From assembly GCF_036321535.1 (NCBI RefSeq), contig NC_087472.1, positions 93,312,001 through 93,376,000 of the forward strand: 64,000 bases of DNA, written 5' to 3'. Of this stretch, positions 20,636 to 64,000 are shown piece after piece. Made by a program: the position numbers and the translations under genes. The notes beneath the pieces are model-generated. The model was not told where the DNA came from. It ran no database searches and was given only the letters and a program-made list of their open reading frames with translations. The stretch comes from Camelus dromedarius (taxonomy: Eukaryota). Position 1 is the stretch's first letter. Each line of letters starts with the position of its first letter.

Positions 20636-20699
20636 GATGGGACAGGGACAGGAAATACCAGGAGCCAAGCATACGGGAACCATAATGACCCAGGCCTCC

Positions 20700-22917: not shown

Positions 22918-22935
22918 TGGTGTCAGAAGTGGGAC
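22918..22935 (+). promoter_or_regulatory. Retroviral primer-binding site, tRNA-Leu type
   Basis: 17/18 complementary to the 3' end of tRNA-Leu(CAA) (ATCCCACTTCTGACACCA), just after the LTR end. Confidence 0.8.
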
Positions 22936-25399: not shown

Positions 25400-25600
25400 A
25401 TTTGGTTGCTTAAATCTTGGCTCCTGGGAATCTCTGCTATGGGAATTTTTTAGTCTTTGGCTATTATTCTCCTTATAGCCATCATGTTAATCTTTCTGGT
25501 GTGTTGTATCCTCCCAGGGGTTTTAAATGCATTTTGGCAGCCACTCACACATCAAATGATAGCTACCAGGATTACACAACTTGAAGAACTCAATGATTTG
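25400..25600 (+). pseudogene. ERV env transmembrane-anchor and cytoplasmic-tail remnant
   Basis: Hydrophobic IILLIAIMLIFLVCCIL segment in ORF 25457-25858, shortly upstream of the PPT where env TM is expected; no ectodomain. Confidence 0.55.
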
Positions 25601-26599: not shown

Positions 26600-27425
26600 G
26601 ATCTTATCCACCCTACCCCCACAATTTCCTACAATTTATTAGCTTCTTTCTAATTTAATTCTTTTCTATCATCTATCATGTGATCCATCACTGCCATCAC
26701 TCTTCTTCCCCTTGTTCTCCCATCATACATGACTTGTACAATTAAGACCCTGGATAATTTGACATTTCCTCTCTCTCTACCTGGACTACTGACAGTTGCT
26801 GGAGAAACACATTCAATTCTTTATGTTGATTACACCATAAATACCTGTCCTCAAATTCACCCAGGCTCTCCTCTATTCCCCAATTACAGCTTCCTTTCAC
26901 TTACAGCAAGTTACCTTCCCTGTTTTACAAAAATAGAAGCTATCAGGCAGAAAAATTCTCCCCTGCCCCACTTAAGATCTTTACGACCAACCTACAAATT
27001 CTGTGTAAACATCCATTATCATCTACATCCCTATCTCCACCTCAGTCACTTATATATTTCAGCTTGGTCTGCTTAGAGAAATTATTCTATCAAATATCCT
27101 CTCTCTCTCTTGTATCTTTGAGTTTTTCATCTTTACTGGTTTGAACACCTTCCCCATCCTCCATCCCTGAGCAAGAGTAAGGAATTTAACTTCCTTATGT
27201 TCCTGTATATAACTGTTCATTTCTCTATCATAAAATTGAATTTATCTCTTACTAGACAGTCAATAAATTTGGAACATGTGATTACTTTTCTGTTCCTCCT
27301 ATAGAACTGTGAGCACTAAGAAAATGCCCCAAACTCTGCATCCCCATTCCTAGTGCCTAGAACATAACATTCTCACATGAATGTTTACTGATGAAATACT
27401 GAAAACACTAATTCATGTATGAATT
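26600..27425 (+). mobile_element. L2 fragments
   Basis: C/T-rich; ACCTTCCCTGTTTTACAAAAATAGAAGCTATCAGGCAGAAA; 3' end CTAGTGCCTAGAACATAA...ATGTTTACTGATGAA. Confidence 0.6.
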
Positions 27426-28336: not shown

Positions 28337-28498
28337 CTTTTCATTATTTTTTTTAACTAATCTTATCCCCACTTTTTTTTTTTCCAAGGGGAGGTAATTA
28401 GGTTTACTTATTTTTTTTCATGGAGGTACTAGAGATTAAACACAGGACATGGTACATGCCAGGTATGCACTCTACCACTTGAGCTATACCCTTCCCCC
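28337..28498 (-). mobile_element. tRNA-derived SINE, camelid vic-1 type
   Basis: Minus strand reads GGGGAAGGGTATAGCTCAAGTGGTAGAGTGCAT (A box), a decayed B box, then CCTAATTACCTCCCC and an A-rich tail. TSD AGCATCATTC at 28327-28336 and 28499-28508. Confidence 0.85.
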
Positions 28499-28615
28499 AG
28501 CATCATTCTTCAATACAGCTTTAACAACAATAATTGAGTACCAGCCTTGTTTGAAATTTCTTTTCAAATGCAGGAAAGAATGAACCATGATTACATATAA
28601 AAAACAAGCTAAGAA

Positions 28616-35600: not shown

Positions 35601-35665
35601 CTTGCAAAATATTCCTTTTAGCATCCCACTGGAGGATGTGCTCCATTAAAAAAAGAAGTATCAGT

Positions 35666-38483
35666 GGAGTGATACTGCCAAGATGGTGTCATAAGTCGTT
35701 CCTGACTGAGCTGCCCTTCATGGGAATAACAACTGACAACAATTCAAGAACAAGACAAGATAAGACCGAGAGAATCCTAGAACACTTGGATGAGGCTAAA
35801 GAACCCCCTATACCACAGAGATCAAGACAGACTGCATTAGAAGGGTAAAGGAAGTGGCTACAAAGTGACTATAACTGCATCTCCCCCAGGCCAGTGCAGA
35901 CTATGTGGAGAGGTCTCCCCTGAGCCTCTGGTTCCTCCAGTGAGAAAAAAGAACCCAGGGTGGCAAACAGCTCCCCCCAGCATTGTGGATCACCTTATAG
36001 GAGCCTCTACTCTGGTCTTGTACCATGGGGACTTCAGGGGAACATGTGGGGTTCATCTACTAGGAAGGTGACTGAGATGAAGAAGTAGGGAGGGGCTCAC
36101 AACAAGCAGCACATGACTCTTGGTAGACCAAGTTCCTGCCTGCAGTGCCCAAGTAGTAGTCCCAACCAGCAGCTATGCTCACCTGTAGAATCAAACTGGT
36201 GGTGCACTCACCAGGGAATTTGCTGGGGTGCAAGTCTAACTTACTTGGGTCCTCAAATGAGGGGTTTTGCCAGCCCTAGTGACTGGTTTGCAGGCAAGGA
36301 GCTGAGTCATAGCCTTACCCACCAGGGAGGGTGTCTCTCAGCCTCATCTGGCCACAGGACCTAGAAAGAGCACACAGAAGCTGTGTAGCCCAGCAGTGCT
36401 TGGGCTGAGAAGCAAGCAGATAGAAGTGATCACCTCCAGAGCAAAGCCAGTACCAGGTTTGGAGGGTTCCCCTGTTACACCCAGGCAAGATGAGTCAGAG
36501 CTCAGGCTGAGCAAAACTCTAGGGCCCTCCAGACCAGAAAGCCTGTTTGGGAAAAATTAGGAGAGGCCTAGAGCAGCCCTTCGCCACCCTACCCAGTCAG
36601 GGGAACTGAGACATAGGCCTACCCTCCATGCATACTGTCTCCCAGTCCCATCTGACAAGAAGGGTGAGCAGGAAGAGCACTAGAGGCTGTGTAACTAGCC
36701 ACTCTCAAGCTGAGAGGTGGGGAGGTGGAGACGATAGTCTGCAGAGCAAATCTAGCAGCCCTGTTCAGCCAGAGAGCTTAGGGCACAGGCTGGCTTGAAT
36801 TACAAACAAAGCTTTAGAGCTGGTTCTCTCCTGCTGCACCTGGACATAGAAACTAATTTGTAGCCCTGCCCATTGCTGAATATAGCCTTCATCCTGGCCA
36901 GTAAGGAAACCTAACCCATTCAACAGCCCTGCTTACAGTGTCACTTGAACAGAGAGTATAGCCTGTGGCTTTCTGTGTCTACAGAGCAAATCTGTGGCCT
37001 CACATGTACAGGATATTCATTGCACACTCTTGCCTGATTTGGGTCCCAAACAACCAGCTGAATAGGCCAGGTCTCATTCTTTGGCCCTGCTAGGACAGGG
37101 AACCTAATTCATAGCCCCATCTATTACTGGGGCTATATAGTGCCCAGTTTCAACCATCTAGTAAGCCTGATCAGAGAATCCAGGCAACTGCAGAGCCTAT
37201 CTTACAGCTTCATGTGGGTAAGGAACAAAGCCTGGAGGCCTATCCAGCTGTTCTCAGTCAATGGCATCCCTTATCCCAGCCCTCAGAACTAAAAAAAATT
37301 GCCTTGGACAAAAATAGACCATAATAGCAGACCCAACCTGCCCAAGGAAATTACCAGCATACAAACCCAGAAACCCAAGCTGAGTTGACTGGTGAAGATC
37401 TGTCTGTGCAAAGCAAATCTATAAAGTTTGGAAGAGGACAGTTAATCAAATGTGCTCTACCATAACTAAAATGGTACGTTTAGATACCAATATAAGGAAT
37501 CAAGGATAACAAAATGTCAGGTAAATACGACCCTATGAAAGGAAACCATTAAAGCTCCAATAAATGATCCTGAAGAAACAGAGATCCATGAAGAATCAGA
37601 CTAAGAATTCAAAATAATCCTCTTAAGGATGTTTAGTGAGATATGAGAAAACACAGACAGGCAACTAAACGAAATTAGGAAAACAATGCATGAACAAAAT
37701 GAGAAGTTTGACAAAGAAATAGAAACCATCAAAAACAAACAAACAGAAATCCTAGAGTTGAAAAACACAATAAATAAATGGAGAATTCAGCAGTTTACAA
37801 GGCAGACTCAACCATGCAGAAGAAAGAATTAGCAACCTGGAGGATATTATTAGACATTATCCATTAAGAGAAGCAAAATGAAAGAAGAGTTAAAAAGAGT
37901 AAAAAAAAAAAAATGCCTCTGAGACTAATGGAACACAATGAAAAGAAATAATATTCGCATTTTGGAAATTCCAGAAAGAGAAGAGAAAGAGAAAGGTATA
38001 GAATGATATTTAAAGCAATAATGGCTAAAACTTCCTGAACCTGGGGAAGAGAAATGGACATCCAGAACCATGAGGCCCAAAGGACCCCAAATAGTCTGAA
38101 CCTGAATAGGGTTACACCAAAATACATTATAATTAAACTGTCAAAAGTTAGACAAAGAAAGAATTTTTAAAGCATCAAGAAAAAAAGAGAAATTACATAA
38201 AAGGGAACCCGCCTAAGACAATTAGCAGATATCTTGACAGAAACTTTTCAGGCCAGCAGAAAATGGGATGACATATTCAAAATACTGAAAGAAAAAAAGC
38301 TATTAACCAAGAATTCTAAATCCAGTGAAACTGTCCTTCAGAAATAAAGGAGAGATAAGGATTTTTCCAAATAAACAACAGCTGAGAGAGTTCATTATCT
38401 CTAGACCTGACTTACAAGAAATACTAAAGGTAGTTCTTTAAGTAGAAATAAAAGGAAGCTAATTAACACCATTAATACATAAA
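35666..38483 (+). mobile_element. Older L1 5' UTR plus decayed ORF1
   Basis: Starts GATACTGCCAAGATGG (YY1-type CAAGATGG of L1 5' ends). GC-rich 5' UTR to ~37450. A-rich ORF1 with AGAAAATGGGATGACATATTCAAA and CCAAGAATTCTAAATCCAG (W..IF / PRILYP motifs), ending ~38440. Confidence 0.88.
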
Positions 38484-40201
38484 AAGGAAAACACAACCAC
38501 ACAAAATCTAAGGGATGCAGCAAAGGCAGTGCTAAGACGGAAGCTTATAGCTATACAGGCCTTCCTCAAAAAAGAACAATCTCAAATAAACAATCTAACC
38601 TACCAGCTAAAACAATTAGAAAAAGAAGAGCAAAAAAACTAAAAATCAGCAGAAGGAAGGAAATAATAAAGATCAGGGAGGAAATAAATAAAACACTGAT
38701 TTAAAAAAATAGAAAAAAATCAATCAAGCCAAGAGCTGGTTTTTTGAAAGAGTAAATAAAATCGACAAACCTCTAGCCAAGTTCATGAGGAAGAGAAGAG
38801 AGAAAGCGCAAATAAGCAAAATAAGAAAGGAAAATGTAGAAATTACAACCAATACCACAGAAATACAAAATATCATACGGGAATACTATGAACAATTATA
38901 TGGAAGCAAAATGGATAAGCTAGAAGAAATGGACAAGTTTCTGGAAACATACAGTCCACCAAGACTGAATCAAAAAGAAACTGACCACTTAAACAAATTG
39001 ATCACTAGAAATGAAATCAAATTAGCAATGAAAAACCTCTCATTAAATCGTATGAGCTGCTTATATATTCTGTAGATCAAGCCTTTGTCAGTTTCATTTG
39101 CAAAAATTTTCTCCCATTCCGTAGGTTGTCTTTTTGCTTTACTTATGGTCTCCTTCGCTGTGCAGAAGCTTGTAAGTTTCATTAGGTCCCATTTGTTTAT
39201 TCTTGCTTTTATTTCTATTACTTGAGCAGACTGTCCTAGGAGAACATTTTTGAGATGTATGCCAGATAATGTTTTGCCCATATTTTCTTCTGGGAGGTTT
39301 ATTGTATCTTGTCTTATGTTTAAGTATTTGATCCATTTTGAGTTTATTTTTGTGTATGGTGTAAGGGAGTGTTCCAGCTTCACTGCTTTACATGCTGGTC
39401 TCCAGTTTTCCCAATACCATTTGCTGAAGAGGCTGTCTTTATTCCATTGTATATTCTTGCCTCCTTTGTTGAAGATTAGTTGACCAAAAGTTTGTGGGTT
39501 CATTTCTGGGCTCTCTATTCTGTTCTATTGGTCTATATGTCTGTTTGACTAGGAATAGACTTACCGTATGACCCAGGAATCCCGCTCCTGGGCATATATA
39601 CAGAAGGAACCCTACTTCAGGATGACACCTGCACCCCAATGTTCATAGCAGCACTATTTACAATAGCCAAAACATGGAGACAGCCTAAATGTCCATCAAT
39701 GGATGATTAGATAAAGAAGATGTGGTATATTTATACAATGGAATACTACTCAGCCATAAAAACCGACAACATAACACCATTTGCAGCAACATGGATGCTC
39801 CTGGAGAATGTCATTCTAAGTGAAGTAAGCCAGAAAGAAAAATATCATATGAGATCGCTCATCTGTGGAATCTAAAAACACACACAAACACACATACACA
39901 CACACAAAGCATAAATACAAAACAGAAACAGACTCATAGACATAAAATACAAACTTGTGGTTGCCAAAGGGGTGGAAGGTGGGAAGGGATAGACTGGGAT
40001 TTCAAAATTGTAGAATAGATAAACAAGATTATACTGTATAGCACAGGGAAATATATACAAGATCTTATGGTAGCTCACGGAGAAAAAAAGTGACAATGAA
40101 TATATATATATGTTCATGTATAACTGAAAAATTGTGCTCTACGCTGGAATTTGATACAACATTGTAAAATGATTATAAATCAATAAAAAATGTTTAAAAA
40201 A
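38484..40201 (+). mobile_element. Younger rearranged L1: sense ORF2 piece, inverted ORF2 piece, sense 3' end
   Basis: Sense 38484-39041 (ORF 38785-39075, IIREYYEQLY). Antisense 39042-39546 (ORF 38970-39503, KWDLMKLTSFCTAKE). Sense 39547-40201 ending AATAAA plus A-rich tail. The 3' part closely resembles the L1 at 28616-29478. Confidence 0.92.
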
Positions 40202-49320: not shown

Positions 49321-49411
49321 ACACGAGTTCTAGCAACAAGGAGCACCTGTGGAGTGCTGAGAATTCTGGGACTCAGAGGCCCTTCCAGTTATTACCTAGC
49401 CCTCAAACAGT

Positions 49412-50018
49412 TGTAAAAATCAAAAACAAATGGAGACCAGCCTTGAAAACTTACTGAGCAGGCAAAACTAGTTTAGTCATACAAGCAAGGCTTAATTTAG
49501 CTTATTTTGTAAGGCTAACTTGACCTGGGTCATTTCTTGTTTACGCCTCTAGAAATCATAAGTAAAACTTAAACTCTGTCCCCAGACTGATAGTAGGCAA
49601 CCACTGACCAATTCCCTACCATTTAAGAAAATTCTAATATTATAACCAACCACCGTGAAGAATAAAATCACTGCCTTCTCACTGTATAAGCTGCTTTATA
49701 ACAACATACCTCTGAGCCGCATTCGATGTTTTACTTTGAGTACTCCCAATTTGCAAACTTTTCTGTTTGTTTGTTTTCTGGTGGGGGGAGGTAATTAGGT
49801 CTATTTAATTATTCATTTAATGGAGGTACTGGGGATTGAACGCCGGACCTCATGTATGCTGAGTATGCGCTCTACCACCTGAGTAATACTCTCCCCCCAT
49901 CAACGCCACGCAAACTTTTTTTTTTTTTTTTTTTTTTTGGTATGTGCTCAATAAACTTTGACTAATTACTACTTTGGTGATTCATTGGTGTTAATTCTGC
50001 TATTCTGATCTTTTGACA
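49412..50018 (+). mobile_element. ERV1 solo LTR, related to the LTR at 22474
   Basis: TG...CA ends; 4-bp TSD CAGT/CAGG (1 mismatch); AATAAA at ~49950; shares GAGACCAG..TT.AAAA, CTGAGCAG.CAAAAC, TAGCTTATTT and ATTTCTTGT with 22474-22914. Confidence 0.85.
49763..49909 (-). mobile_element. tRNA-derived SINE, camelid vic-1 type, nested in the LTR
   Basis: Minus strand reads GGGGAGAGTATTACTCAGGTGGTAGAGCGCAT...GTTCAATCCCCAGTACCTCC...CCTAATTACCTCCCC plus a (AAAC)n tail. TSD GCAAACTTTT at 49753-49762 and 49910-49919. Confidence 0.88.
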
Positions 50019-53000
50019 CAGGCTACAGGCTAAAAAAAGCCTAGGCACCAGTCTGACCACACACTGGGAGCCAAGAGGTCTTTTCAGCCACTTTACAGCT
50101 TTCCAAATACAGCCTCAAAGACCCCTATGGCCACCAGCCTGTCCAAGAACTGGTATTCCAAGGGCCTTTGATGTTTTAGGCTACCTACTGGCAAAGGAAC
50201 CTAGGGCTCTATCAGCAATCATCCCACCCGCACAGCAGTGCCTCTGGGACTCTTTCTGAAACCCAGGTGCTGTAAAATCCGCAACTCCTACTAGGCTATC
50301 AACAGGACCAGCGCTCTCTGCCTCAGTGCACCTCACCCTCTCAGACCCCAGAACTCTACTGAAAACCTACCTGGCACTTCAGTGGTACACGGGAGCACTT
50401 CCAGACGCTTTCTGCCCTGGCGATGGTGCCCTAAGGGTCCTTTCTGAAACCACACAGCACACAAACTGTATCCCAGAGTAACCTTATGGTAGCCAGCCCC
50501 CTTGCTGTGGAATACAAGGATCTACTGGCAATCATCCTTCCAGGGCAAAGACACTTCCGGCGCCCGTTCTCTCACTTTTATTACGTCACGTTAGTGCAGC
50601 TGAAAATCTTCCGGCCAGCACACTTCCTGTTAGCTAGGGCTACGGGATTCCTTCGTCCTCAGTTTGAACCCTGAGCAACTGAGGATTCTTCGGGGACCAG
50701 CCTGTCCGTCTGTTAGGGAAAGGAGAGCATTTTTTGGTCACGACATTAGCATCCAACAGAGGAAGCAGGATAATTCCTTCAATCTGTAGTCGGCTCACAA
50801 GTTCGGGAATCATGAGCCTTCTCGGCCACCGTCTCTACCTCACGCAGGTGCCCCAGAAACTTCCTGCCAGGAACCTGCCTGCTCATTAGGGTTCCGCGAA
50901 TTCTTTAGGCTCCCAGATGGTCCTTATAAGGGAAAAACACAGGTAATTTATACTTGGCCGTCAACAGGCCTTTCGGTCTGGAGATATCTTTCCCAGTCAG
51001 ATAGCTAGACTCTTACCACTTCGCTAGGGTCACGTGGCAGTGAGAGGACTTCTGGACACACACAGTAGTGCCAGGGCCCTACCCAAAACCCTTGCTGTGG
51101 AATATGACCCTTTTGGGAACTAACCTTCCAGCACCCTGGGGCCCCCTTTGGTAGCATAGTACCATCACATTAACTTCACGAAGGCATTTCCAACACTAAG
51201 TGTTTCAGGGAGCTACTCTTTCCACCTACAGTTGGTACTGGGTATCCGGAGATTTTCTATCAGTTTGTCCCAATGATCATGATTCCTTTTGGCTCAGTAA
51301 TAGGAGCCATTTCGGCCACCATTTCCCACCACTCCACCCTCATTACCCTGGAGAACCTTGCTACCACCAATTTAGCCCACTAGAATGCCAGAGCTCCTTC
51401 CGACCCAGAGTCGTCAAGGAAGTATGTGCCCTTGAGACCATCTCCGTTCCCATAGGCTGCAGAACCCAGATACCTTGGGCATCTAGGACCCCTGGAATTC
51501 TCCCAGACACGTGCAGTCCAGAGAACTGGCAGCCCGGAGCATTTTAGGACACCTTCTGCCCTGGTGCTGTTGTCCTGTGGGCCCTTTATGAGACCATGCT
51601 GACCGTGTATCGGGTTCCAGGAGAGCCCTTATGGGCACTAGCTTGCTCTAGTGCTGAAGAATATGTGGCCTTATTGACACCTATGTATCTAGAACATTGG
51701 TGCAGGCGGCTCCTTTTCGCCATGGCATGGCACCTCCATCCAGGGAGCCTTCCAGGGGCCAGACTTCCATCCAGGTAGAGTTCTGGGATTCCTGCTGGCC
51801 CCTAAGGCTAGTGAATCTTAGGTTCTTTAGTGACCAGATAGCTCGCCTGTGGTGGAAAGGAAAGCACTTTGGGCCATGGAACAAGCCACTGGGTGGGGAG
51901 GGGTAGGCCTCAACTGCTCGTAGTCAGCCAGCAAACTGATGAAGTTAAGATCCGCCTGGGCCACCGTCTGCCCATCCAGCTGGTGCCTCAGGGGAACCTT
52001 CCTGCCACAAACCTGCCTCTTCGATAGGGTTCCGTGGATTCTTCACACCTCAAGGAAGTTTTTTTAATCATTGGAAGCATGAGCTCCTCCTACCAGCACT
52101 TCAGCAGGAGGTGACCTTTACGCCCTGGGCCCATCGAGCCACCACTCCCTCTCACAGCCCAGGACACTACCATGTACATGCCTGACTCCTCAAGGATGCC
52201 TTGCTTCCGGACACTACCCTGACATTGTCCTGGTGACCCTTATGACAACCAGACTGTCAGTGCACGGGGGTCCTGTGAGTGGAATTAAGAATCCTTGCTG
52301 TGGCATACGGCTTTACTGGGAACCATTCAGCTTGTTGGTGCCTGGGGGTCCCTCTGGCCCCAACACTCCCATCATGTTAGTGTCATGAGGGCCGTTCCAG
52401 ACTTAGAATTTTCGTGAGGCTCTTCCTACCCGTAGTCCATATAAGAGTCAGGAGTTTTGGCCAAAAGTTTGCCTGCCTGCTGTTGAAACTGGAGTACATT
52501 CGATCGTGGCACTGCTTTATGACTGAGATACCATGGGCCCTCTCGGCTAAGGAATTTGAACCCTTTTGGCCACCATCCTTCCCCCAGCTCTGGTGCTCCG
52601 GAGAACCACCGATCAATACCTTTGCTCTAAGGTTCTAGGGCTCTTTCCGGCCTAGTGTCATTCATGTGACCTGGAACTGAAGGTTCTTATGCCACCTGTC
52701 CCTGTGATGCAGAGTCCAGAACCCTTCATGGAACCTTAGGCCAGGCTGTGGTGAGCTAACAGCCCCTCCAGCCCTCAGCTAACTCGTGTGCCATTGAACT
52801 TAGAGCCAGTTTGCTCGACAGTGTCCTTGGGAACTTGCCAATCAAAAGCTGGCCCAGCACCTAAGGTTCCTGCTCCCCTAGTCTCACCCCGATTTGGGGA
52901 CAGTATACTCTTGTGACCATCACCCTCCAGACAGTCTGCAGAACTCGGATCCCTTTGTGCATCTCACCATTTCGATTGGTAGGAACCTGAGGATCCTTCT

Positions 53001-53763
53001 GGAATCATGCTGCCTTGGGCACTAACACTCAGAAAGGGCTTCTGGACACATTCTGCCCTGGTGTTGGTGACCTGTGGATCCTTTCTGAGATGAGACTACA
53101 TTTACATGGGGTTCCAGGAGAGCCCTTTATGTACAGTAGCCTGCAATCTTGCTTTGGAAAGGAATTCTCTATTGGCAACCACTCACCCAGAAATCGTGCA
53201 TGGAGCTCCTTCCCACCCCAGTTACTTCAGGGTGTTGACCCAGGGAATCTTCCTGCCACCAACCTGTTCACTAGGTTTCCAGCGATTATTCAGGCCCCCA
53301 TAGTGTCTTTATGCAGTGTAATCATGGGTTCCTCTCACTCGACTTTCAGGACTAGCTCTTTTAGTCTGGGTCATTCTTGCTTTCTCAGTCCCCAGGACTC
53401 CTCCAATGTTTACTTTCCATTGGGCTGATGCCCAGGTGAGCACTTTCAAACTCCATCTTCCCTAGCATTGCTGTCCTGGAGGCCCTTTTGTGACCAGACT
53501 GCCTCTGTACTAGAATATTATGGGCCTAAGTAAGAATTCATGTTGAGGAATATACACTCCTACTAGAAACCATACTTGTACTCTCAGGTTAGTGTCATGA
53601 GGGCTCCTATGTTCCCATAAATTTCCAAGAGTCCTTTTGGCCCCGGGAATTTCTAGCCATCAATTTGCCCATCTGCTCTAGAAAACAAATCATGTTCAGT
53701 CACGGTTTAGGATGCCTCCTGGGACAGTGTGGGCCTTTTCGGATCCAGAATCTGAGCCTTTCA

Positions 53764-54003
53764 GGATGTGAGGGTGATCTGGCTGCAACATCTGTTACCC
53801 CACTGATTGCCAGGGTTGATTTGGCTGTTCTGGCTGGCTAGGTTGGTGTCCCCTTCCTCCCTCACCACTCCATATGTGTCCCTCCCGAAGCTGCACGCTC
53901 GGTTGAAGAGGACGACCATCCCTGATAGAGGAGGACCGTTCCTCTTGGTCAAGGGTATATGAGTAGCTGCGCTCCCCTGCTAGAACCTCCAAACAATCTC
54001 TCA
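53764..54003 (+). pseudogene. 7SK snRNA retropseudogene (RN7SK-derived), 3'-truncated, no poly(A) tail
   Basis: GGATGTGAGGGTGATCTGGCTGCAACATCTG...GAAGAGGACGACCATCCC...GCTCCCCTGCTAGAACCTCCAAACAA matches 7SK from nt 1 to ~240, with mostly CpG transitions. Flanked by identical CAGAATCTGAGCCTTTCA at 53746-53763 and 54002-54019. Confidence 0.96.
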
Positions 54004-57000
54004 GAATCTGAGCCTTTCAAACACCATCTATCTTCCTCTTTCCCTATCCCCCCACTTACCCCAGGGCCCTACTTGGTTACCCAGGGAGATCTTCCAAACA
54101 CCGACATGGCCTCTCAATACGGCAGGGCTCCTTCTGGCCCCGAGTCATCACATGCACCTAGGAACAAAACATTATTTGGACACTAGCCTGCCCATGTGGT
54201 GGAGAACCCTTATGGTCACTGGACAGGCTTGGAACTGGGTAACTGATGGCTCTTTCAGTCCTTAGCTATTCTGTTTTCAAAGGACCTTGCAATCCTTTTA
54301 GTTAAGGGCCTCCCATGAGATAGTGTCTCTAGGGACCTTGCCATCACAATCTGGGGTTCTGCATGTCCTTATGGTCCCTAGCCCCACTGCAAGGTGGGGA
54401 ACCACATACCTTATGACCACCATCCACCCTGCAAACTCTGGAACCCAGAGTACACTGGGGATCATTTCCATCCTGATCTGTAGGATGGGCCATGTACAGT
54501 GCAGGGACACTGGCACACCAGGAGCAATTCCACAAGCACTCTGCCTCGGCACTGGTGTCTTGAGGGTGCTGAGACCAGGCTACCCAAGCACTACATTCTA
54601 GGAGATCCCATAAGGACACTAGCCTGCTTACTGCTGTGGAACACAGAACCCTATAAGCAACATCCAGCCAGATCCTAGGAGCAAGAAGGCCCTTCGGTGT
54701 CACTGCACCTCCATGTAGCTGGTGTACCTGGAAAACTTCTGGCCTCCAGACTTCCTGGCAGCTAGGGATCCCAGATACATACCGGCCCTCAGCCTGAATT
54801 TATTCTGAGGAACTGAGGATTCTTGGGCAACCAGCCTTCCCAGTGACAGAAGTGTATCTGAAATTTCCCCTCATGGCACTAACACCTGCCAGGAGAACTG
54901 TGAGCCTTTCAGGCCTGCAATTATCTAGGAAACCTGGAATTAATAAGCCATCTCAGCTGCCCTCTGTCCTTTCATGGAAGCCCCATGAAACCTTCCTACC
55001 ACTAAATTTCCCTCTCACCAAGGTTCCAGTGATCCTTCAGGCCAGCAAACCATCCCTATGTGGTGGAAACATGGGGTCCTCTTATTAAGCCACCAATCCG
55101 ATGAGCCCTATAGGTCTGTGTCCATCTAGATTTTCTCAGGCCCTGGGATTCTTCTGGATACATGCCTGCTTCCATGCTGGTGCTGCAGGGGGTATTTCCG
55201 GACATCACCTGCCATGGAACTGCTGCCCTGGGGGCCCTTATTTAGCCAGACTGCTGATGAACTGGCATCGTGTGGGCCCTCCCCAGGTCCGGTGAAGTGA
55301 AACACATGGCCTAATTGGAAACCACACTTCCAGCACTCTGGTGGCCTGGGTCCCATTTAGGCAATGTACACCACATAGCATTAGGGTCATGAAGTGACGT
55401 CAGCCCCAAAAAGTTTGCAGGAGTTCTTACTGCTCAAAGTCCACTCACATGTTGGGAACTCGGGGCATTTCTGGCTATTACTTCACCTGTCAGCTTTTGA
55501 AACTAGAATGCTTTTGGTTACAGTACCAGACTTGGGCTTATGTAACATGAGCCCTTACAGCTAAGGACTCTGAGCCCTTTCAGACACAGTACTTACCACC
55601 AGCATGGATGAACCAATGAACTTTCAGGCCAACAACATGTCTCCCTTAGGCTTCCGTGTTCCTTAGGGTCTGGAATTGTTCAGCTCCCTTGGGAACCTAA
55701 AATTAATAGGCCATCAGCCTGACCAGCCTGACCATCAGAAATCAGGACCCTTCCAGTCACCAGCCTGTCCTGGCCATGGGGAACCTATGACTCTTGTGGA
55801 CCTCAGCTACCCCACTTGCAATGGAACCTAGAACCCTTTCAGACATGGAACTCTGCACGAATTAGTGCCCCTGGGCACCTTCCAAGCACCATCTGGTCTG
55901 ACACTTAGGGTTTCATGTGCCCTTATGGGCCTAGCCCGTCCACCAGCTGAGGGAACCAGATACACTTCAGATCATCACTCTCTTTGTAGGCTGTGAAAAC
56001 TCAGAGCCCATTGGGCACTGCGTCCATCCCGAACTCTAGGTAACTGAGACTCTTACAGACATATTTGGTCCAGGGAGCACTTGCATCAAGGGAGCACTGT
56101 CTTGGTGCAGGTGCCCTGTGGGTCCTTTCTGAGGTCAAACTGCCTGTGCACTGGGTCCCAGGAGAACTCATACAGGCACTCTCCTGCACTGGAGATGTGG
56201 AATACACCACCCTATTGGCAACCATCCACTTAAAATTCTGGTGAAAGAGGCCTCTTTTCCCCACTGCATCTAGATCTGGAGGTGCCCGGGGAACTTTGGC
56301 CATCAAACTTCTTGCCAGCCAGGGTTCTAGGTTTCTTACTGGTCCCACTTGGTGCACGTGCTGGAGAATCGAGGGATCTTGATGACCTGTCTGCCCGCCT
56401 AAGGTGGACAGCATTTGGGGTCACAGCACTATTATTCCACAGGGGAACTGAGAGCCCTTCAGCCCTTGCTAGCTGGGGAATCTTGAGTTCCCTTGGGCTC
56501 TAGGTGTCCCTCTAGTGGGTGCCCCAGGGAAACTTCCTGTCAATAACCTGACTGCTGGCTAGGGTTCTGATAATAATTAAGACTTCTACACTGTCCTCGT
56601 GGGGTGGAAACTCAGCCTCCTCCAAGTAGACTGAGAGGAGAACAAGGCCTTTTGCCCCTGGGCTATGTCACCCTCTCATACTTCTAAGCCCCCCTTCTAG
56701 TACCATGGGCATTAGTGCCAGACCCATCTGCCCTGGTATTGCTGCCCAGCTGGCCCTTCAGGCAAAAAAAGTACCTACATACAGGGGTCCTATGGGTCCT
56801 GGCCAGAGCCTGTGCAGTGAAATATATAGCCCTACTAAGAACCATACTTGCAAAATGCTGGTACTCCAGACCCGTTTTGGCACGCAAACACCATAGCATT
56901 ACTGTCATGAGGGCCTTCTCGGCCATTGAGTTTCTGGGGTAGTTCCTGTTTACAAACTAGTATGCTTGGGACCTGCAGACTTTCCAGCCATCAGTTTGGC

Positions 57001-60000
57001 TGCCTACTGGTGAAACGGGAGAACTTTGAGTCACAGTACATAACACGCGCTGAGGTAAAAGTGGGTACCTCCACATCGGGTGTTGGAGCCATTTCGGCCA
57101 CCATCCTCTCTCCTTTCCCCCTCCCCCACACACCGTGAGTGCTGCAGTGAAACTTCCGACCACCAACCTGGCTCCTCGCTAGTGTTCCGGGGTTCTTCCC
57201 TGCCTTGAGTCTTGCAGCATGCCTAGGAAGCGAAGGTTCTCTGGCTACCAGCCCGCCTGCCCGCATGATGCAAAAACCAGAACTCTTCCAGCCACTGGTC
57301 GGTCAGGTCTAGTGCTAGGGAACATTTGGCCATTCCAGTCCTCAGCTACTCTGTATGCCATGGAGCCCAGAACCTTTTCAGTCCCCTACTACACACAAGT
57401 TAGCATCCCTGGGGCTTTCAGTTTACACCTAGGGTTCCCGTGTCCTTCTATCCCACAGGCCTTCCTGCAAGTTGTGAAACCACATACCCTCCCACAATCA
57501 TCCTCCCTGTAGGCTATGGAACCCAGAGCCCACTGGGCATCATTTCCATCCTGACATCCAAAACCAGGGAGGTTTTCTGGACAATTGCACACTCAGAGCA
57601 CATTCTGCCCCGGCGCAGGTGTCTTGATGGTGCTTTCTGAGACCAGGCTGACCATGCACTAGGTTCTAAAAGATCCAACGACACTAGCCTACTTGGTGCT
57701 GTGGAGCACAGAACTCAATAAGTAATCATTAATCTAGATTCCTGGTGCAAGAAGTCCCCTTTTTGTCATCTTACCTCCATGTGAGCGCTGCCCCAGGGAA
57801 CCTTCTGGTCACCAGACTGGCGGCCAGCTAGGGTTCCAGGATTCCAGCCGGCCAGGAGCCTGTGCATACCTCTGGGGAACCGAGAACTCTGTCTCACTCT
57901 TGGGCGACCAGCCTGCTCATCTGCAGTGGAAGGAGAGCATTTCCCCACACAGCACTACCACCCTGCACAGGAACTTTGAGCCTGATGTTGAAACCAGAGC
58001 ACCTTTGTTCACTAAATAGGCGTCACAAGGATAGAGTGTTGTCACTTCCGGCCCCGGATCATGAACCCTCTAGGACACCGTCTGTTTCTCCCATGGTTAC
58101 ACCAAGAAATCTTCCTACTTTCAACATGCCCATTCACTAAGGTTCCGGGGACCCTTCAGGCTCCTAATTGAACTTACGCGGTGAAACTCAGGCTCCTATT
58201 AGCCTGTCAGCAGGACGAGACATTTTGGTCTGAGTCCATGTCGACTTCTCAAGCCCTGGGACTCTTTTGGGTATGTGCTTGCCACTGCGCTGGTGCCATG
58301 GGAGGCAATTCAGGACACCATCTGCCCTGGCACCGCTGCCCTGGTGGTCCACTGTGCGACTGTACTTCCTAAAAACTAGGGTGCCATGGGCCCTAGCCAA
58401 ATCCTGTTCTGTGGAACATGTGGCCCTACCATGAACCACACTTCCAGTATGCCTGTGCCCCGGTCTCATTTTAGCACCTTATTCCAAGTAGCGTTAGTGC
58501 CATGAAGGCCCTTCTGGCCCTAAATTTCTAATCAAAGTCAGCCGGTATGCTGGATATCTGGGTGATTTCCAGCCACTAGGTTTCCCACCTGCTGTTGAAA
58601 CCAGAGCATCTTCGACTATAGTACAAGCCTCGCACTAGTATACAATGGGCATCTGCAGTTAAGAAGTCTGAGTCCTTTCAGCCACCATACTTCCCCGCAA
58701 CGTGAGAGCACCGATGAATCTTCCGATCACCAATGTATCCCTTCGCTAGGATTCCGGCATTCCTTCTGGCCTCCAGTTACCCTGCTTGCCTGGGAACCAA
58801 AAGTTCTTTGGCCACAAGCCTGATCGTGTGATACAGAAACCAAAAACCTTCTGGTTACCGGACAGGCATGGGAATCTATGGCCCTTCTAGTCTCCAGCCG
58901 TCCTATTTTTGAAATGAAACATAGAATCCTTTCTGTCAGGAGCCTTTGCAGGAGTTAGTATACATAGCACATTCTGATCACCATCAACCCTAGACTGCAG
59001 GATTCCATGTGTCCTAATAACTACTAGTTGGCCTGCAAGCTGGGCAACTGTGTACCCTTGTGACCATCACTCTCCTTGTGGGATGTAGAACCCATAGCCC
59101 TTGGGCATCCTGTCCATTCTAACCTCTAGGTCCCTAAGGGCTCTTCTGCCGAAACGTGCTGTACAGGGTGCTAGCACCCTGGGAGCATTTCTGGGCACTG
59201 TTAGTCTGGATGCCAGTGCCCTGTGGGTCGTTTCTGAGACCAGACTGCCTCGCACTGGGTTCTACGAGAGTCCATATGGGCACGAGCCTTGTCTGGTGCT
59301 GTGGAACACAAGGCTCTCCTGGCAACTATCCATCCAGAATTCTGGCGCAAGGGGGCTCCTTTCACCACCGCATCTCCATCTGGGCTATGGCACAGGGAAT
59401 CTTTTAGCCATCAGACTAACAGCTAGGGTTCCGGGTTTCCTAGCCAGACTCCAGCCTGTGTGCACTCTGGGGAACTGAGGATTCTTTAGCTACATTCCTG
59501 CCTACCTGTGACGGAAAGGAGAGTATTTCAGTTATTGCACTGGCGTCCAGAACAGGCACGGAGGGCCCTTCAGGCCTTCAGTCAGCTCAGAAGCTCGAGA
59601 ATCATGAGCTCTCTCAGCCACCTTCTGTCCTTCATGCGAGTGCCACAGGGAAACTTCCTCCTCTCTCTTTAGGGTTCCGAGAATCCTTCAGGTTCCCAGA
59701 CTGTCCTTAAGTGATGGAACCACAGGTCCTCCTACTTGGCTGTCAGCAAAATGAGGCCTTTCTGCGTGATTTCAATCGTGCTCTCTCAAGTTCTGGGACT
59801 CTTCCTATCACTTACCTGCCACTTTGGGGTTGCCAGGGGTCGAACTTCTCTGTGGGCCCTTTTGATAACCAGACTGCCACTGGAGTCCCATGGACCCTTG
59901 AAGGCCCTAGCTAGATCTCATGCTATAGATTATATGACCCTATGTCCAGCACACTGATGCCCATTTTGGCCCCTGTTACTCCCATTGTGTTAGTGTCATG

Positions 60001-61813
60001 AGGGACTTTCTGGCTTTCAGGAATTCCTGCCCACATTCTCCTGACATGTCGGTGATCTGGAGGTTTTGTGGCCATCACAGTTGGCAAGTCTGCTGTTGAA
60101 CCAGAGCATGTTCAGTCACAGTACAGACCTCAACTGGGTTATCCTGGGCCCTTTTGGCTCAGGTGTCTGAGACCGTTTGGCTAGGTAAGTTTTGCCCTCC
60201 CCACTTGCAGGTGCCCTCAGGAACCATCCAACTACCATCAGGTCTTTTCTGACCTCTGGGAACCTGGGGCTTTTCTAGACATATGCCAGCCAGCATGCTG
60301 ATACTCTGGAGCTCATCCAGACATGTTCTAACCTTGCACTGATACCCCATGGGTCTTTTCTGAGACAGGTCTGCTTGTATACCGGGTTCCAGGGAGCCCT
60401 TTGGACACTTGTCCACTGTAGTGCTGTGAAATATAGGGACCTATTGGCAACCATTCTTTCAGCATGATGGCACTTTGGGGGACCCTTTCAGCCACCATAC
60501 CTCCAGCACAATAGTGCACTGGGGAACCTTCTGGCTACTAGTCTTCCTGCCATCTAGGGTTTCAATGTTCCTGACTGGCCCCAACCCATCCTCTGGCTGG
60601 AGAATCAAGGGTTCTTTGGCCACCAGTCTGCCTACTTATGGTAAAATCAGAGCATTTTAGGTCACATTATTGGCCTTCCCCAGGAGTACCACAGGGTCTT
60701 TTGGACCTCAGCCAGCCCACAAGCTGATAAAGCAAGAATCCATTTGGCCACTGTCTATTGAGCTTGTGTCTCAGGAACATCCTGGCCACCAGACTTTCCA
60801 CCAGCTAGGGTTTCAACCTTCCTCTTACCACAACCTGCTGGCATGCTGTGAATCCAAGGGTTTTTCTGCTATTAGCCTGCCATCCTGTTATGTAAACTAG
60901 AGTACATTCATTCACATTAAACACTTGGAGCTAGGGAACAGAGTTCCCTCTGGCCTTAAGCCAACCCACAAGCTCAGGAAACTTGAGCCCTCGGCTATCC
61001 TTTGCACAGGGTTCACTGGAGAAGCCATTAGATCACCATCATGCTCACTTGCTAGGGCTCCAGGGGTCCTTCCAGAACCCAATCAGCCTGAATGTTGGGG
61101 AACCAAAGGTTCTTCAGACATCAGTCTATCCTTGTTATGTAAAAATCAAATCCTTTTAGGTCACTGAACAGGTGTTATACTGGGGAACTAAGGGCCCTTC
61201 CAGCCATAATCCAGCATGTCTGTGTATAACACAGAACACTCCTGGGCTCTGATTGGCACATTGGTATCTTTGAGGACCATGTGACCAGTCGCCTGTTACC
61301 TGTTAGCACTTATTGATTTCTTATGGTCTTCAGCCTGACCTGGGACTGGGGAACTGAGGGGTCACAGGCTATATCAGTCAGCCTCCCTGCTGTGGAACCA
61401 GAGCCCTTTCAGCCTTGTTATATCCCACCCTCCAAATCTCCATGTTCCTTCCATATACATGCCTGCTAACATATTGTTGTCCTGGGGGCAATTCCAGATA
61501 TTTCTGTCTTTGTACTGGTGCCCTGGAGGCCCTTTTGGCAATCTGACTGCCCGTACATTGCTGAACCAAGGAGCATTACAGAAATGAACCTGCTCCAGTA
61601 CTATGGAATATATGGCCCTATTGGAAACCACTTATCCAACATTCTGGTGCTTCAGGTCCCCTTTTGCCAACCTTACCACCAATGTGTGCTGCTGCCCTAG
61701 GGAAACTTCAAGACAGCCACTTCTCTCCAATAAGGCTGCCAGGAGTCCTTCCAGTCCTTAGCATGTCCATGTGCTGGGAAACTGAGGAATCTTCTGCAGT
61801 CAGCCTGTCTATC

Positions 61814-62924
61814 TGTTAAGATAGTATCAATTCAAATTAGATTGCTATCACGTGAGGATGTTAAATGTAATCCCCATGGCAACCACAAAGAAAATGATTA
61901 TAGAATATAAACAAAAGGAAATTAGAAAGGAATAAAAATGGTTCACTACAAAAAAAGAAACACCTATAATTAGAATAAGACAGTAATGAAGGACATGAGG
62001 GACAGAAAAGATACAAGACTTACAAAGAACACAGAAAAATGGCAGAAGTAAGTTTTCTTTATCAGTAATTTCCTTAAATGTTAATGGATTAAACTTTCCA
62101 AGCAAAAGGCATAGATTTGGTAAAAATACATTTAAAATATGACCCAACTATATGGTATCTACAAAAGGTTCACTGTAGATCCAAAGAAACAAATATGTTT
62201 AAAGGGACAGGAATGATATTGCAAAGATGGTCCATACAAATAACAATCAAAATAGAGCAAGGCCACTACACTGATATCAGATAATATAGATTTTTAAGTT
62301 AAAAATGTTATAGCATACAAAGGAGGGCATTATATATCGATAAAAGGTCAATTCATTAAGATATAATAATTATAAACATACATGCACCAAATAGCAGAGC
62401 CCCTGAATATACGAAACAATCATTGACAGAAGACTTCAGTACCCCACTTTCAATAATGGATAGAACATCCAGACAGAGAGCAATAAAGAGATAGAGGGGT
62501 TGAACAACACTGTAAACCAACTAGAGCTAACAGGTATTTATAGAACAGTACATTCAACAACAGCAAAATGAATGCACATTCTTTTCCAATCACATGGAAC
62601 ATTCCCCAGGATAGCAATATGTTGGACACAGAACAAGGTTAATAAATTTTAAAAGACTGAAATAAAACACAGTATCTTCTCTGACCATAATGGAATGAAT
62701 CTAGAAATCTATAACAAAAGAAAAACTGATAAATTCACAAATACGTGGAAATTAAATAACATACACTTAACCAATGAATCAAAGAAAAATCAGAAGAGAA
62801 ATTAGGAAATACTTACAAACAAATGAAAATGAAAACACAACATACCAAAACACATGGGATGCAGTAAAGGCAGTGCTCATAAATAAATGTATACCTGTAA
62901 ATGCATACATTAAAAAAGATAAAA
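61814..62924 (+). mobile_element. Old L1 (L1MB/L1M4-like) inter-ORF region plus ORF2 endonuclease part
   Basis: GTATCAATTCAAATTAGATTG...AATCCCCATGGCAACCAC; TTAAATGTTAATGGATTAAAC (LNVNGLN); TCTGACCATAATGGAAT (SDH motif); decayed. Confidence 0.88.
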
Positions 62925-63695
62925 AGACTTCTTGTCTCTAGTATTGCATGTAACGTAGCTTTAAAATTATCATCCTCATTCTCACAAGAAAAAGTTGAAC
63001 AAATTTAAAATCAATACCCCTTTTTAGATCTATTAGAGACAAGGTAATAGGGAAAACTGCTACCCCCCCATATTTTAGTGACACACAGGCAGATAGAGAC
63101 CTGGCAGAAATCCAGGAACAGAAAAAAAAAAAAAACCACTAGGGCTAGTTTCAGTTCCTTTTACAGTATATAATGGCTAGCTTTCAATAGAATAATTGTG
63201 AGTCATACTAGAAGACAAAAATTGCAATTTGAGGAGAAAGAGAAAGTATCAGAACTAGATTTAGTATGGCAAAGATCATAGTATTTTAAACAAATATGAT
63301 TACAGATGGACATTGTTAGCAAAGGGATGGAAATTCCAACCAAAAACCAAAAGGAAATACTAGAAATCAAAAATACTATAGTATGTGAAGAATGCCTTTG
63401 AAGGGCTCAGCAACAGACTAGATATGTATGAGGAATGATTAAATAAGCTTTATGATATTCCAAAAGAAGCTTCCAAAACTGAAATGCAAAGAGAAAAAAA
63501 AATGTAAAGACCAAATGAGATATCCAAGAACTGTAAGACAATTACAAAAAGTGTAACAAACACATGATGGGAATTATGAATAAGAAGAAAAAAGAAAGAA
63601 AGGAACAGAAGAGATATTTGAAGTTATAATGACTAAGAATTTTCCAATATTAACAACAGATACCAAACCACAGATGCAGGAAGCTGAGAAGCTGA
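62925..63695 (+). mobile_element. Old L1 (L1MC/L1MD-like) 5' end plus ORF1 fragment
   Basis: AGACTTC...CTCACAAGAAAAAGTTGAAC 5' end; ORF1-like GAAATACTAGAAATCAAAAATAC, GAAGAGATATTTGAAG, CCACAGATGCAGGAAGCTGAGA. Confidence 0.7.
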
Positions 63696-63699
63696 GAAG

Positions 63700-64000
63700 G
63701 ACAGGTGCACCTTATTAGAGCAGTGAAACTATTCTGTATGATATATGGCATTATACATTTGTGAAACCACATACAATGTACAACACCAAGAGGGAACCCC
63801 TAATTTAAGTTATGGATTTATAGTTAATAAAAATGTATCAATATTGATTTATCAGTGATAACAGTTGTACAACAGTAATGCAAGGTGTTAATAATCAGGG
63901 AAACTGTGTTCTGGGGTAGGGGGAAAGTGGGTATATAAAAGCTTTCTGTACTTTCCGCTCAATTTATTTGTAAACCCAAACTTGCCCTAAAAATAAAGTA
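63700..64000 (+). mobile_element. L1MC1-like 3' end
   Basis: GCAGTGAAACTATTCTGTATGATA...CATTATACATTTGT...ACAACACCAAGAG...TCTGTACTTTCCGCTCAATT...AAAAATAAAG. Confidence 0.85.

What the first reader, a model, noticed from the sequence alone, without database searches (positions are those of the whole stretch)
49340..61810. 12.5 kb diverged higher-order tandem array (~1.5 kb period, ~8 copies) in AT-rich DNA
Seen: two independent marker motifs recur in phase. TTAGTGTCATGAGGG-like spacings are 1207, 1212, 1792, 1518, 1595 and 1496. CTTTCTGAGACCA-like spacings are 1144, 1497, ~1487, ~1557, 1508, 1597 and 1126. The 1792 spacing falls to ~1536 once the 7SK insertion is removed, so units form a ~1.5-1.6 kb class and a ~1.1-1.2 kb deleted class. 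Copies are so diverged that only short motifs align by eye. The array is GC-richer than its flanks, C-skewed on the + strand, and contains no recognisable MIR or L2. I do not recognise it as a named interspersed repeat. Inference: it is a satellite or macrosatellite that has stopped being homogenised. It could be a relic (peri)centromeric array, a dispersed copy of a camelid satellite, or the repeat domain of a lncRNA or piRNA-producing locus. It is the best candidate here for something undescribed.
Basis: partly seen in the sequence, partly recalled or inferred. Interest (0 to 1): 0.78.

Follow-up and report, generated by a model that had tools for sequence, protein, structure and literature searches.

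The report
Fossil 43-bp higher-order satellite array
A 12.5-kb stretch in a camelid-like genome is a long-frozen tandem array of about 270 eroded 43-base units arranged in 1.55-kb blocks; it looks mainly like a fossil of satellite evolution, though two parts kept unusually many CpG sites, as if partly shielded from germline methylation.

Summary
It missed the basic unit, a 43-bp GC-rich monomer (~271 copies). Thirty-eight monomer types run in fixed order to make a ~1.55-kb higher-order repeat (HOR): 7 anchor-to-anchor units plus broken ends.

The short units are not one class. Each lost a different block of whole monomers. Copies are about 58-66% identical, with a star-like tree and more divergence than old L1 pairs in the same window. 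I infer that homogenisation stopped roughly 100 My ago or earlier.

Decay looks neutral: no codon signal, no Pfam match above cut-off, no hairpin excess, no CTCF array, and the marker motifs are no better conserved than in simulation. A solo LTR, a SINE and a 7SK retrocopy inserted later. Public RNA runs give no usable evidence of expression.

One signal departs from uniform decay: CpG is retained in two ~3-kb domains (o/e up to 0.41 against 0.05-0.14 elsewhere in the array; p~1e-3). This suggests partial germline hypomethylation, like the mouse X LoD10/12 repeat domains.

Verdict: a fossil locus-specific HOR satellite; a germline regulatory role is possible but not shown. Dfam and mammalian genomes could not be searched.

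The parts
49330..61820 (+). Whole decayed tandem array: ~271 monomers of ~43 bp in a 38-monomer, ~1.55-kb higher-order repeat
   Evidence: Cyclic profile score is best at K=43 (464 against 336-408 for K=40-42, 44, 45; three shuffles below 0), and ~271 monomers on the raw array. Consensus autocorrelation peaks at 43, 85/86, 128, 170, 213, 256. Monomer-type map.
49330..49411 (+). Left stub of the array, cut off by the LTR
   Evidence: One monomer at 49368 scores 20.6 bits; the best score on either strand in 1-49000 is 15.5.
49412..50018 (+). Solo LTR (TG...CA, 4-bp target duplication with one mismatch; ERV1-like label recalled) inserted into the array
   Evidence: Ends printed. Aligns over ~420 bp with the LTR at 22472-22918. 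Array monomers lie on both sides.
49785..49902 (-). tRNA-derived SINE inside the LTR (camelid Vic-1-like, label recalled)
   Evidence: 76% match to a second copy at 28388-28502; sequence.
50019..50439 (+). Partial head unit; jumps from monomer type 14 to type 37
50440..51583 (+). HOR unit 1 (1144 bp; lacks types 27-32 plus smaller pieces); highest CpG o/e, 0.41
50441..51040 (.). CpG-island-like patch (GC>50%, o/e>0.6) with an ETS-like site at 50553 and a CRE-like site at 50581 (motif labels recalled)
   Evidence: the only 300- and 400-bp windows in the 64 kb that pass; 22 CpG in 500 bp, 0 of 2000 permutations reach this..
51584..53080 (+). HOR unit 2 (1497 bp, complete); CpG o/e 0.27
53081..54567 (+). 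HOR unit 3 (lacks ~6 monomers, types ~4-9, 256 bp; carries the 7SK insert); CpG o/e 0.14
53764..54001 (+). 3'-truncated 7SK retrocopy (238 nt) with an 18-bp target duplication at 53746-53763 and 54002-54019; present in one unit only, so younger than the array
54568..56124 (+). HOR unit 4 (1557 bp, complete); CpG o/e 0.13; sister copy of unit 6
   Evidence: bootstrap 100
56125..57632 (+). HOR unit 5 (1508 bp, complete); CpG o/e 0.23
57633..59229 (+). HOR unit 6 (1597 bp, complete); CpG o/e 0.33, with small CpG-island-like patches at 58021-58220 and 58591-58900
59230..60355 (+). HOR unit 7 (1126 bp; lacks types ~25-33, 373 bp)
60356..61820 (+). Rearranged tail with ~250-bp (6-monomer) periodicity; CpG o/e 0.05; ends in monomer phase
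61815..62920 (+). 5'-truncated old L1 (inter-ORF spacer and start of ORF2; L1MB-like label recalled) abutting the right end of the array; whether the array resumes beyond the window is unknown
   Evidence: Sequence; GC falls from 0.50 to 0.27-0.35.

Best explanation
A locus-specific satellite that grew hierarchically and then froze. SHOWN: a 43-bp GC-rich monomer; 38 types in fixed order; paralogous types at lags of 6 and 16/22 monomers; a star-like burst of 1.55-kb copies; a last ~3.07-kb duplication; deletions of whole monomer blocks; later LTR, SINE and 7SK insertions; neutral-like decay dominated by C>T/G>A changes and 1-bp deletions. INFERRED: a CpG-rich minisatellite expanded by slippage and unequal exchange (43 bp, then a 256-bp 6-mer, then ~16- and 22-mer blocks, then the 38-mer, then a two-unit duplication). 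Short units arose by exchange between paralogous monomers. Once copies diverged too far to recombine, turnover stopped, probably about 100 My ago or earlier, before camelids existed. Today most of it probably has no selected sequence function. The two CpG-richer domains probably reflect partial escape from germline (likely sperm) methylation, as a regional property or a weak promoter-like by-product.
For: Monomer and HOR structure. Paralogous types 4/10, 5/11, 6/28, 15/37, 16/38 and 2/18 are 0.70-0.77 identical. Block deletions of 264, 256 and 373 bp equal 6.2, 6.0 and 8.7 monomers (coordinates, ratios). Star tree with one supported pair, units 4 and 6, 3.07 kb apart (BLAST 2048 bp at 64%). 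With the same aligner, the 21 HOR pairs give K2P 0.45 (non-CpG 0.40, transversion distance 0.21) against 0.17-0.35 (transversion distance 0.07-0.12) for five L1 pairs and 0.38 for the LTR pair. A<->T differences are 0.129 against 0.04-0.085 for L1. Deletions: 32 of 1 bp against 6 of 3 bp, and no lag-3 conservation peak. No Pfam family above cut-off in 82 of 84 array ORFs. Mean folding z is about 0 on both strands. A neutral simulation reproduces the best 15-bp window (14 of 30 runs reach 0.897). No strand asymmetry in substitutions (p 0.23-0.79).
Against: CpG retention is not uniform: chi2 21.5 on 6 df, p=0.0015; the four full units give p=0.024; lag-1 autocorrelation is 0.42, p=0.0014. Sister units 4 and 6 hold 13 and 34 CpG (p=0.003). 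A uniform 10x CpG model gives o/e 0.14-0.34, while the units span 0.05-0.41. A GC-rich old L1 5' region in the same window has o/e 0.03 (36001-37000). The best 43-bp window exceeds 29 of 30 neutral runs. The age is relative only, alignment noise inflates it, and the L1 subfamily labels are recalled. Copy number elsewhere in the genome and orthology were not testable (no genome held).
Confidence: 0.55

Rival explanations
1. Same origin, but co-opted as a germline-hypomethylated regulatory array (promoter or enhancer set) for a nearby X-linked testis gene or lncRNA, of the kind seen at mouse LoD10/12 upstream of Mageb1/b2, and possibly homologous to it.
For: Two CpG-retaining domains and the only CpG-island-like windows in 64 kb. 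Ancestral CpG sites in TTCCG context are kept in 17 of 90 cells against 48 of 456 elsewhere (p=0.03, post hoc). PMC3859323 describes ~14-kb X-linked domains built of ~3-kb repeat units, unique to those loci and hypomethylated only in germ cells. One of its two probe primers matches the HOR consensus at score 26, which 7 of 403 (1.7%) GC-rich control 20-mers reach. Earlier unchecked notes place the window ~2.5 Mb beyond the DMD 3' end, the side of X that holds these mouse domains.
Against: The second primer does not match the consensus or the array (p 0.57), and neither primer matches the raw array. By recalled human and mouse coordinates, the distance fits the IL1RAPL1 5' region, not the Mageb1/b2 position several Mb further on. 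No gene was found in the window (112 of 137 flank ORFs scanned, none above cut-off). Mean CpG level is explained by incomplete decay at a normal 10x rate. No expression evidence.
Confidence: 0.22
2. Tandem expansion of an internal or subterminal repeat of an old transposon (hAT-type element, L1 5' region or ERV interior), so that a repeat library would already mask it.
For: Precedent: the human 2q37.1 array of 89-bp MER20-derived units, listed with a 1.5-kb unit (PMC2588610 passages). An old L1 piece abuts the right end. I recall that the hAT element FordPrefect has GC-rich internal short repeats; this is a lead only and was not tested.
Against: The LTR lies inside the array, not at its end. 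The L1 piece starts in the inter-ORF spacer, and the L1 5' region at 35.7-37.5 kb gives no hit to the HOR profile. No terminal inverted repeat joins the array ends among the 25 longest of 155 inverted pairs, though the right end may be lost.
Confidence: 0.13
3. Relic (peri)centromeric array, or a dispersed copy of a living camelid satellite.
For: The monomer-to-HOR build with broken edges resembles centromeric satellites.
Against: Divergence exceeds that of old L1 pairs. Alpaca satellites have 1.8-8.5-kb units and were picked from high-similarity dot plots. No look-alike among earlier scan windows, at low sensitivity. Setting is AT-rich DNA with ordinary old repeats.
Confidence: 0.05
4. Repeat domain of a lncRNA, or a miRNA or piRNA precursor array.
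For: Four RNA runs of one study labelled 'reproductive system metagenome' hold 0.53-0.58 of the sampled words; these were not mapped. An upstream LTR in + orientation could act as a promoter (inference).
Against: Share divided by the run's size relative to the DNA runs is 1.11-1.38 for those four, 0.97-0.99 for two others and 0.14-0.61 for six more, as expected from genome-wide carry-over. No Rfam family but 7SK. No hairpin excess. No substitution strand bias. Pachytene piRNA output is unlikely from a meiotically silenced X (general knowledge, if the X placement holds).
Confidence: 0.04
5. Decayed protein-coding repeat exon.
For: A GC-rich, C-skewed repeat could encode a proline-rich repeat; the consensus length is near a multiple of three.
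Against: The monomer is 43 bp, not a multiple of three. All six frames are broken in copies and consensus. 1-bp deletions dominate. No relatives for two array ORFs in either protein collection.
Confidence: 0.01

Closest known systems
Human locus-specific VNTR arrays with higher-order repeats (61-bp Xp22.33 array with 1.6- and 2.4-kb HORs; 40-bp 1p36.32; 42-bp 11q23.2; 89-bp/1.5-kb MER20-derived 2q37.1), PMC2588610 passages
   Same: Single block above 10 kb, a short monomer of 36-89 bp, kilobase HORs in several of them.
   Different: Those were found by TRF or are described as ~80% alike to their source. This one is invisible to TRF (period limit 500), with monomers ~50% alike and HOR copies 58-66% alike. 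No Xp21.3 array of this type appears in the passages seen.
Mouse X LoD10/LoD12 germ-cell hypomethylated repeat domains upstream of Mageb1/b2 (PMC3859323)
   Same: Size (~14 kb against 12.5 kb), ~3-kb unit against a 3.07-kb two-unit block here, locus-restricted, CpG signal pointing to germline hypomethylation, same side of DMD if the earlier notes are right.
   Different: They include inverted repeats and lie 2-4 kb upstream of a gene. Here the array is purely direct and no gene is in view. Homology rests on one weak primer match, and the position seems several Mb off.
X-linked macrosatellites DXZ4, ICCE, FIRRE (PMC6985041 passages)
   Same: Old GC-rich X-linked tandem arrays with kilobase units.
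   Different: They carry paired CTCF/YY1 sites. Here the CTCF consensus has only 4 two-mismatch hits in the array, of 12 in the window, and no GCCATCTT YY1 core. Different position.
Alpha-satellite-type HOR evolution (recalled; outline in PMC2588610 passages)
   Same: Diverged monomers fixed in an ordered HOR, deletion variants in whole monomers, disordered edges.
   Different: 43-bp GC-rich monomer, ~8 copies only, no homogeneous core.
Alpaca satellites VpaSat01-16 (PMC13751797)
   Same: Same animal group (inferred); kilobase units.
   Different: Units of 1.8-8.5 kb in high-similarity arrays, mostly near centromeres; none at 1.55 kb or 43 bp.

Membership tests
Locus-specific satellite/VNTR with higher-order repeat | Head-to-tail short monomer | tested here: met
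   43 bp, ~271 copies, all on one strand
Locus-specific satellite/VNTR with higher-order repeat | Ordered multi-monomer unit repeated | tested here: met
   38 types in fixed order through 7 units
Locus-specific satellite/VNTR with higher-order repeat | Restricted to one locus | not testable with these tools
   No genome held; no second copy within the 64 kb
Locus-specific satellite/VNTR with higher-order repeat | Ongoing homogenisation or copy-number variation | tested here: not met
   Star tree, 58-66% identity, single-unit insertions not spread
Catalogued camelid satellites (VpaSat01-16) | Unit length 1.8-8.5 kb in a high-identity array | tested here: not met
Catalogued camelid satellites (VpaSat01-16) | Sequence homology to a consensus | not testable with these tools
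   Only the first 400 letters of each consensus were visible; no alignment was run
DXZ4/ICCE/FIRRE-type CTCF-YY1 arrays | CTCF site in each unit | tested here: not met
   4 hits with 2 mismatches in the array, not one per unit (consensus recalled)
DXZ4/ICCE/FIRRE-type CTCF-YY1 arrays | Paired YY1 site | tested here: not met
   0 GCCATCTT, 1 CCATCTT in the array (motif recalled)
DXZ4/ICCE/FIRRE-type CTCF-YY1 arrays | Inactive-X hypomethylation and superloops | not testable with these tools
   Needs methylation and Hi-C data
LoD10/12-type germ-cell hypomethylated repeat domain | ~14-kb block of ~3-kb repeat units | tested here: inconclusive
   12.5 kb, 1.55-kb unit with one 3.07-kb duplication; no inverted part
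LoD10/12-type germ-cell hypomethylated repeat domain | Hypomethylated in male germ cells | tested here: inconclusive
   Indirect only: CpG retention in two domains
LoD10/12-type germ-cell hypomethylated repeat domain | Sequence homology to the mouse repeat | tested here: inconclusive
   1 of 2 primers matches the consensus; control rate 1.7% per 20-mer
LoD10/12-type germ-cell hypomethylated repeat domain | Lies 2-4 kb upstream of a MAGEB gene | tested here: not met
   No MAGE or other Pfam domain in the 112 flank ORFs scanned; only 2.2 kb of right flank is in view
ERV internal region | Flanked by LTRs with a primer-binding site after the 5' LTR | tested here: not met
   Array continues on both sides of a solo LTR with a target duplication
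L1 5' extension | Array leads into ORF1 of the same element, or is homologous to L1 5' regions | tested here: not met
   Adjacent L1 starts in the inter-ORF spacer (label recalled); no hit to the L1 5' region at 35.7-37.5 kb; Dfam 5' ends not tested
hAT-derived tandem array (MER20 2q37.1 type; FordPrefect lead recalled) | Monomer homologous to a transposon consensus | not testable with these tools
   No repeat library; the paper found lists the name only
miRNA precursor array | Recurrent stable hairpin per unit or Rfam match | tested here: not met

The most novel reading that the evidence does not exclude
A satellite HOR older than the placental radiation, still readable monomer by monomer, that survives at the same X position across mammals. 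It would be one of a family of germline-hypomethylated arrays (including mouse LoD10/12) that serve as promoter or enhancer platforms beside X-linked testis genes, with particular units kept unmethylated in sperm.
Probability: 0.17. Interest if true: 0.72.

Novelty: new member of a known kind. Interest (0 to 1): 0.44.

Why it matters
Satellites normally turn over fast (general knowledge), so a complete, frozen record of how a 43-bp minisatellite became a 38-monomer HOR is a useful natural experiment. Shared deletions and insertions across species would date each step. Near-identical starting sequence in neighbouring units also makes the array a built-in recorder of long-term germline methylation: sister units 4 and 6 kept 13 and 34 CpGs. 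If it proves homologous to the mouse LoD10/12 repeats, it would give those unexplained germ-cell domains an origin and a testable motif. If Dfam already holds it, or it is unconstrained and uniformly methylated, it is an ordinary relic.

Tried and rejected
Expression: one search listed 24 runs, 18 holding part of window 54100-61800. The RNA shares match the fraction of a genome-sized assembly each run holds (reading 'million letters' as contig total is my inference, from DNA runs of 1925-1979 M), so they were not used as evidence. No read-level map was obtained.

Protein relatives: none for ORF 52991-53425 (7 candidates, none at E<=0.01) or ORF 59098-59475 (0 of 1.84 billion). Pfam: nothing above cut-off in 112 of 137 flank ORFs (L1-derived ones mostly left out) or 82 of 84 array ORFs (two 7SK ORFs left out).

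Metagenome motif scans: 0 hits and 43 hits. The best of those, L027, scored 10.4 bits, vanished when the seed was masked, and was matched by 2 of 300 planted-seed controls, so it is chance.

Marker motifs as selected sites: not beyond the neutral simulation. Hairpin array, CTCF array, codon structure and transcription-type strand bias: all negative.

miR-6134 probe (PMC12623544 passage): no real match to the array (score 20; 17% of controls reach it). An IL1RAPL1 first-coding-exon motif (recalled) was not found in six frames, so the position is not confirmed. PstI sites are not one per unit in phase.

Earlier scan notes hold no look-alike. Literature searches that found no description of this array. 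Closed-access papers, Dfam and Repbase are not covered by them.

Full report
Observation. The array is there and far beyond chance. Self-BLAST shows same-strand off-diagonals, the longest 2048 bp at 64% between 54387-56338 and 57465-59442. 8-mer spacings are enriched 3.7x at 1.5-1.6 kb and 4.2x at 3.0-3.1 kb against a Markov null, while a 12-kb flank stays at or below 1.54x. TRF, limited to periods up to 500, does not see it. GC is 0.515 against 0.345 in the flank.

Anatomy. The basic unit is 43 bp. The consensus of the units correlates with itself at 43, 85/86, 128, 170, 213 and 256 bp; the lag-43 value is 0.139 against a shuffle maximum of 0.022. A cyclic profile fits best at 43 (464 against 336-408 for other lengths; three shuffles negative) and counts ~271 monomers in the raw array. 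The monomer consensus is 81% GC with five CpG. Thirty-eight monomer types recur in fixed order. Types 4/10, 5/11 and 23/29 (lag 6) and 2/18, 3/19, 37/15, 38/16 and 28/6 (lag 16, cyclic) are each other's best matches at 0.65-0.77. I read these as older 6-mer and ~16-mer layers. The three short units lack different blocks: types 27-32, ~4-9 and ~25-33, or 264, 256 and 373 bp. The head jumps from type 14 to type 37. Most of these breaks fall between paralogous types, as unequal exchange would give (inference). The tail (60356-61820) is rearranged at ~250-bp steps.

Insertions and borders. A monomer at 49368 lies left of the LTR. The LTR (49412-50018) has a 4-bp target duplication with one mismatch, so it is a solo insertion in the array, not the end of a provirus holding the array. 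It carries a tRNA-type SINE. The 7SK retrocopy has a perfect 18-bp duplication. By eye against the Rfam consensus it shows about a dozen CpG-type changes and about six others in 238 nt, so it is young and its site is methylated in the germline (inference). The right end meets a 5'-truncated old L1. The family labels (Vic-1-like, ERV1-like, L1MB-like) are recalled, not looked up.

Age. Units are 0.56-0.61 identical in the multiple alignment, one pair 0.65, and 0.66 on average by local alignment. The tree is a star: internal branches are 5.8% of its length and only units 4 and 6 pair (bootstrap 100; the tail and head were left out). With one aligner, the 21 HOR pairs give non-CpG K2P 0.40 against 0.15-0.34 for five L1 pairs and 0.34 for the LTR pair. 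A<->T differences, which do not depend on GC content, are 0.129 against 0.04-0.085 for L1 and 0.09 for the LTR. If the older L1 pairs are ~80-100 My old (recalled), the array froze about 100 My ago or earlier. This is an inference, and misalignment inflates it.

Signs of function. Deletions are mostly 1 bp (32 against 6 of 3 bp), with no three-base rhythm. There is no Pfam match above cut-off (82 of 84 ORFs) and no protein relative. Folding z averages about 0 on both strands, Rfam finds only 7SK, CTCF sites do not recur per unit, and substitutions show no strand bias. Thirty neutral simulations reproduce the best 15-bp window (14 of 30 reach it), so the marker motifs are not special; the best 43-bp window is reached by only 1 of 30. 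RNA runs that hold the array do so in proportion to how much genome-sized sequence they contain. No read-level map was obtained, so expression, strand and start sites remain open.

The one odd signal is CpG. Unit o/e values are 0.41, 0.27, 0.14, 0.13, 0.23, 0.33, 0.22 and 0.05, with the flank at 0.11. Heterogeneity is p=0.0015 over seven units, p=0.024 over the four full ones, and p=0.04 at homologous ancestral sites. It forms two domains, about 50.4-52.9 and 56.9-59.9 kb (autocorrelation p=0.0014). Sister units 4 and 6 hold 13 and 34 CpG (p=0.003), so the difference arose after duplication and depends on position. The only CpG-island-like windows in 64 kb are in these domains. Against over-reading: a uniform 10x CpG rate already explains the mean (0.22, range 0.14-0.34), and the ETS-context excess is post hoc (p=0.03).

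Context. Unchecked earlier notes put DMD introns 74 and 76 at 2.48 and 2.46 Mb before this window on the same piece and call the genome camelid. That implies the X chromosome beyond the DMD 3' end, near the IL1RAPL1 5' region by recalled coordinates. I could not confirm it.

Comparison. It is built like human single-locus VNTR arrays with HORs (PMC2588610, passages only) but is far more eroded. It fails the unit-size and homogeneity features of the alpaca satellites (PMC13751797: parts 1-3 of 8 and the spreadsheet supplement with consensus cells cut at 400 letters; the slide supplement was not seen). It fails the CTCF/YY1 feature of DXZ4-type arrays (PMC6985041, passages). The most interesting neighbour is mouse LoD10/12 (PMC3859323: passages, parts 4 and 6 of 8 and Table S4; its Fig. 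S6 and text supplement, which may show the repeat, were not seen). These are ~14-kb X domains of ~3-kb units, hypomethylated only in germ cells. One probe primer matches the HOR consensus at a level 1.7% of 403 control 20-mers reach; the other does not match. That is a lead, not homology. PMC6088404, PMC12623544 and PMC5753468 were seen as passages only and do not describe this array; the other papers were search listings.

Verdict. A real, apparently undescribed, fossil higher-order satellite of a known general kind, most likely without selected sequence function (0.55). A germline regulatory role is the main alternative (0.22) and a transposon-derived origin is untested (0.13). Interest 0.44. 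It would rise to about 0.7 if cross-species searches tie it to the mouse germ-cell hypomethylated repeats.

Noticed in passing
window 22472-26200: Decayed ERV-like remnant: 5' LTR, primer-binding site near 22919, AT-rich interior, an env-tail-like ORF at 25454-25858 and a 3' LTR remnant. Its LTR is related to the solo LTR in the array (labels recalled).
   Followed up: partly
window 35665-40200: Old L1 with a ~1.8-kb GC-rich 5' region (CpG o/e 0.03 in 36001-37000), joined to a younger L1 with an inverted segment at ~39040-39550.
   Followed up: partly
window 55388-55402: A perfect CRE-type palindrome at 55395 sits right behind the unit-4 copy of the marker motif, in a CpG-poor unit; probably chance.
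   Followed up: no
window 50555-59434: TTCCGG occurs 10 times on the + strand and never on the - strand of the array, reflecting the monomer; most copies lie in the two CpG-richer domains.
   Followed up: partly
window 27022-27044: Gapped match (score 27) to the human miR-6134 probe in L2-like DNA; no window-wide null was run, likely chance.
   Followed up: no
window 62925-64000: A second old L1 (5' end, part of ORF1 and 3' end, internally deleted; L1MC-like label recalled) interrupts the L1 that borders the array.
   Followed up: no
window 49916-49938: A pure 23-T run lies 16 bp beyond the SINE inside the LTR, on the side of the SINE head rather than its tail; unexplained.
   Followed up: no
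window 20600-21190: Another solo-LTR-like element, unrelated to the array's LTR by alignment score.
   Followed up: no
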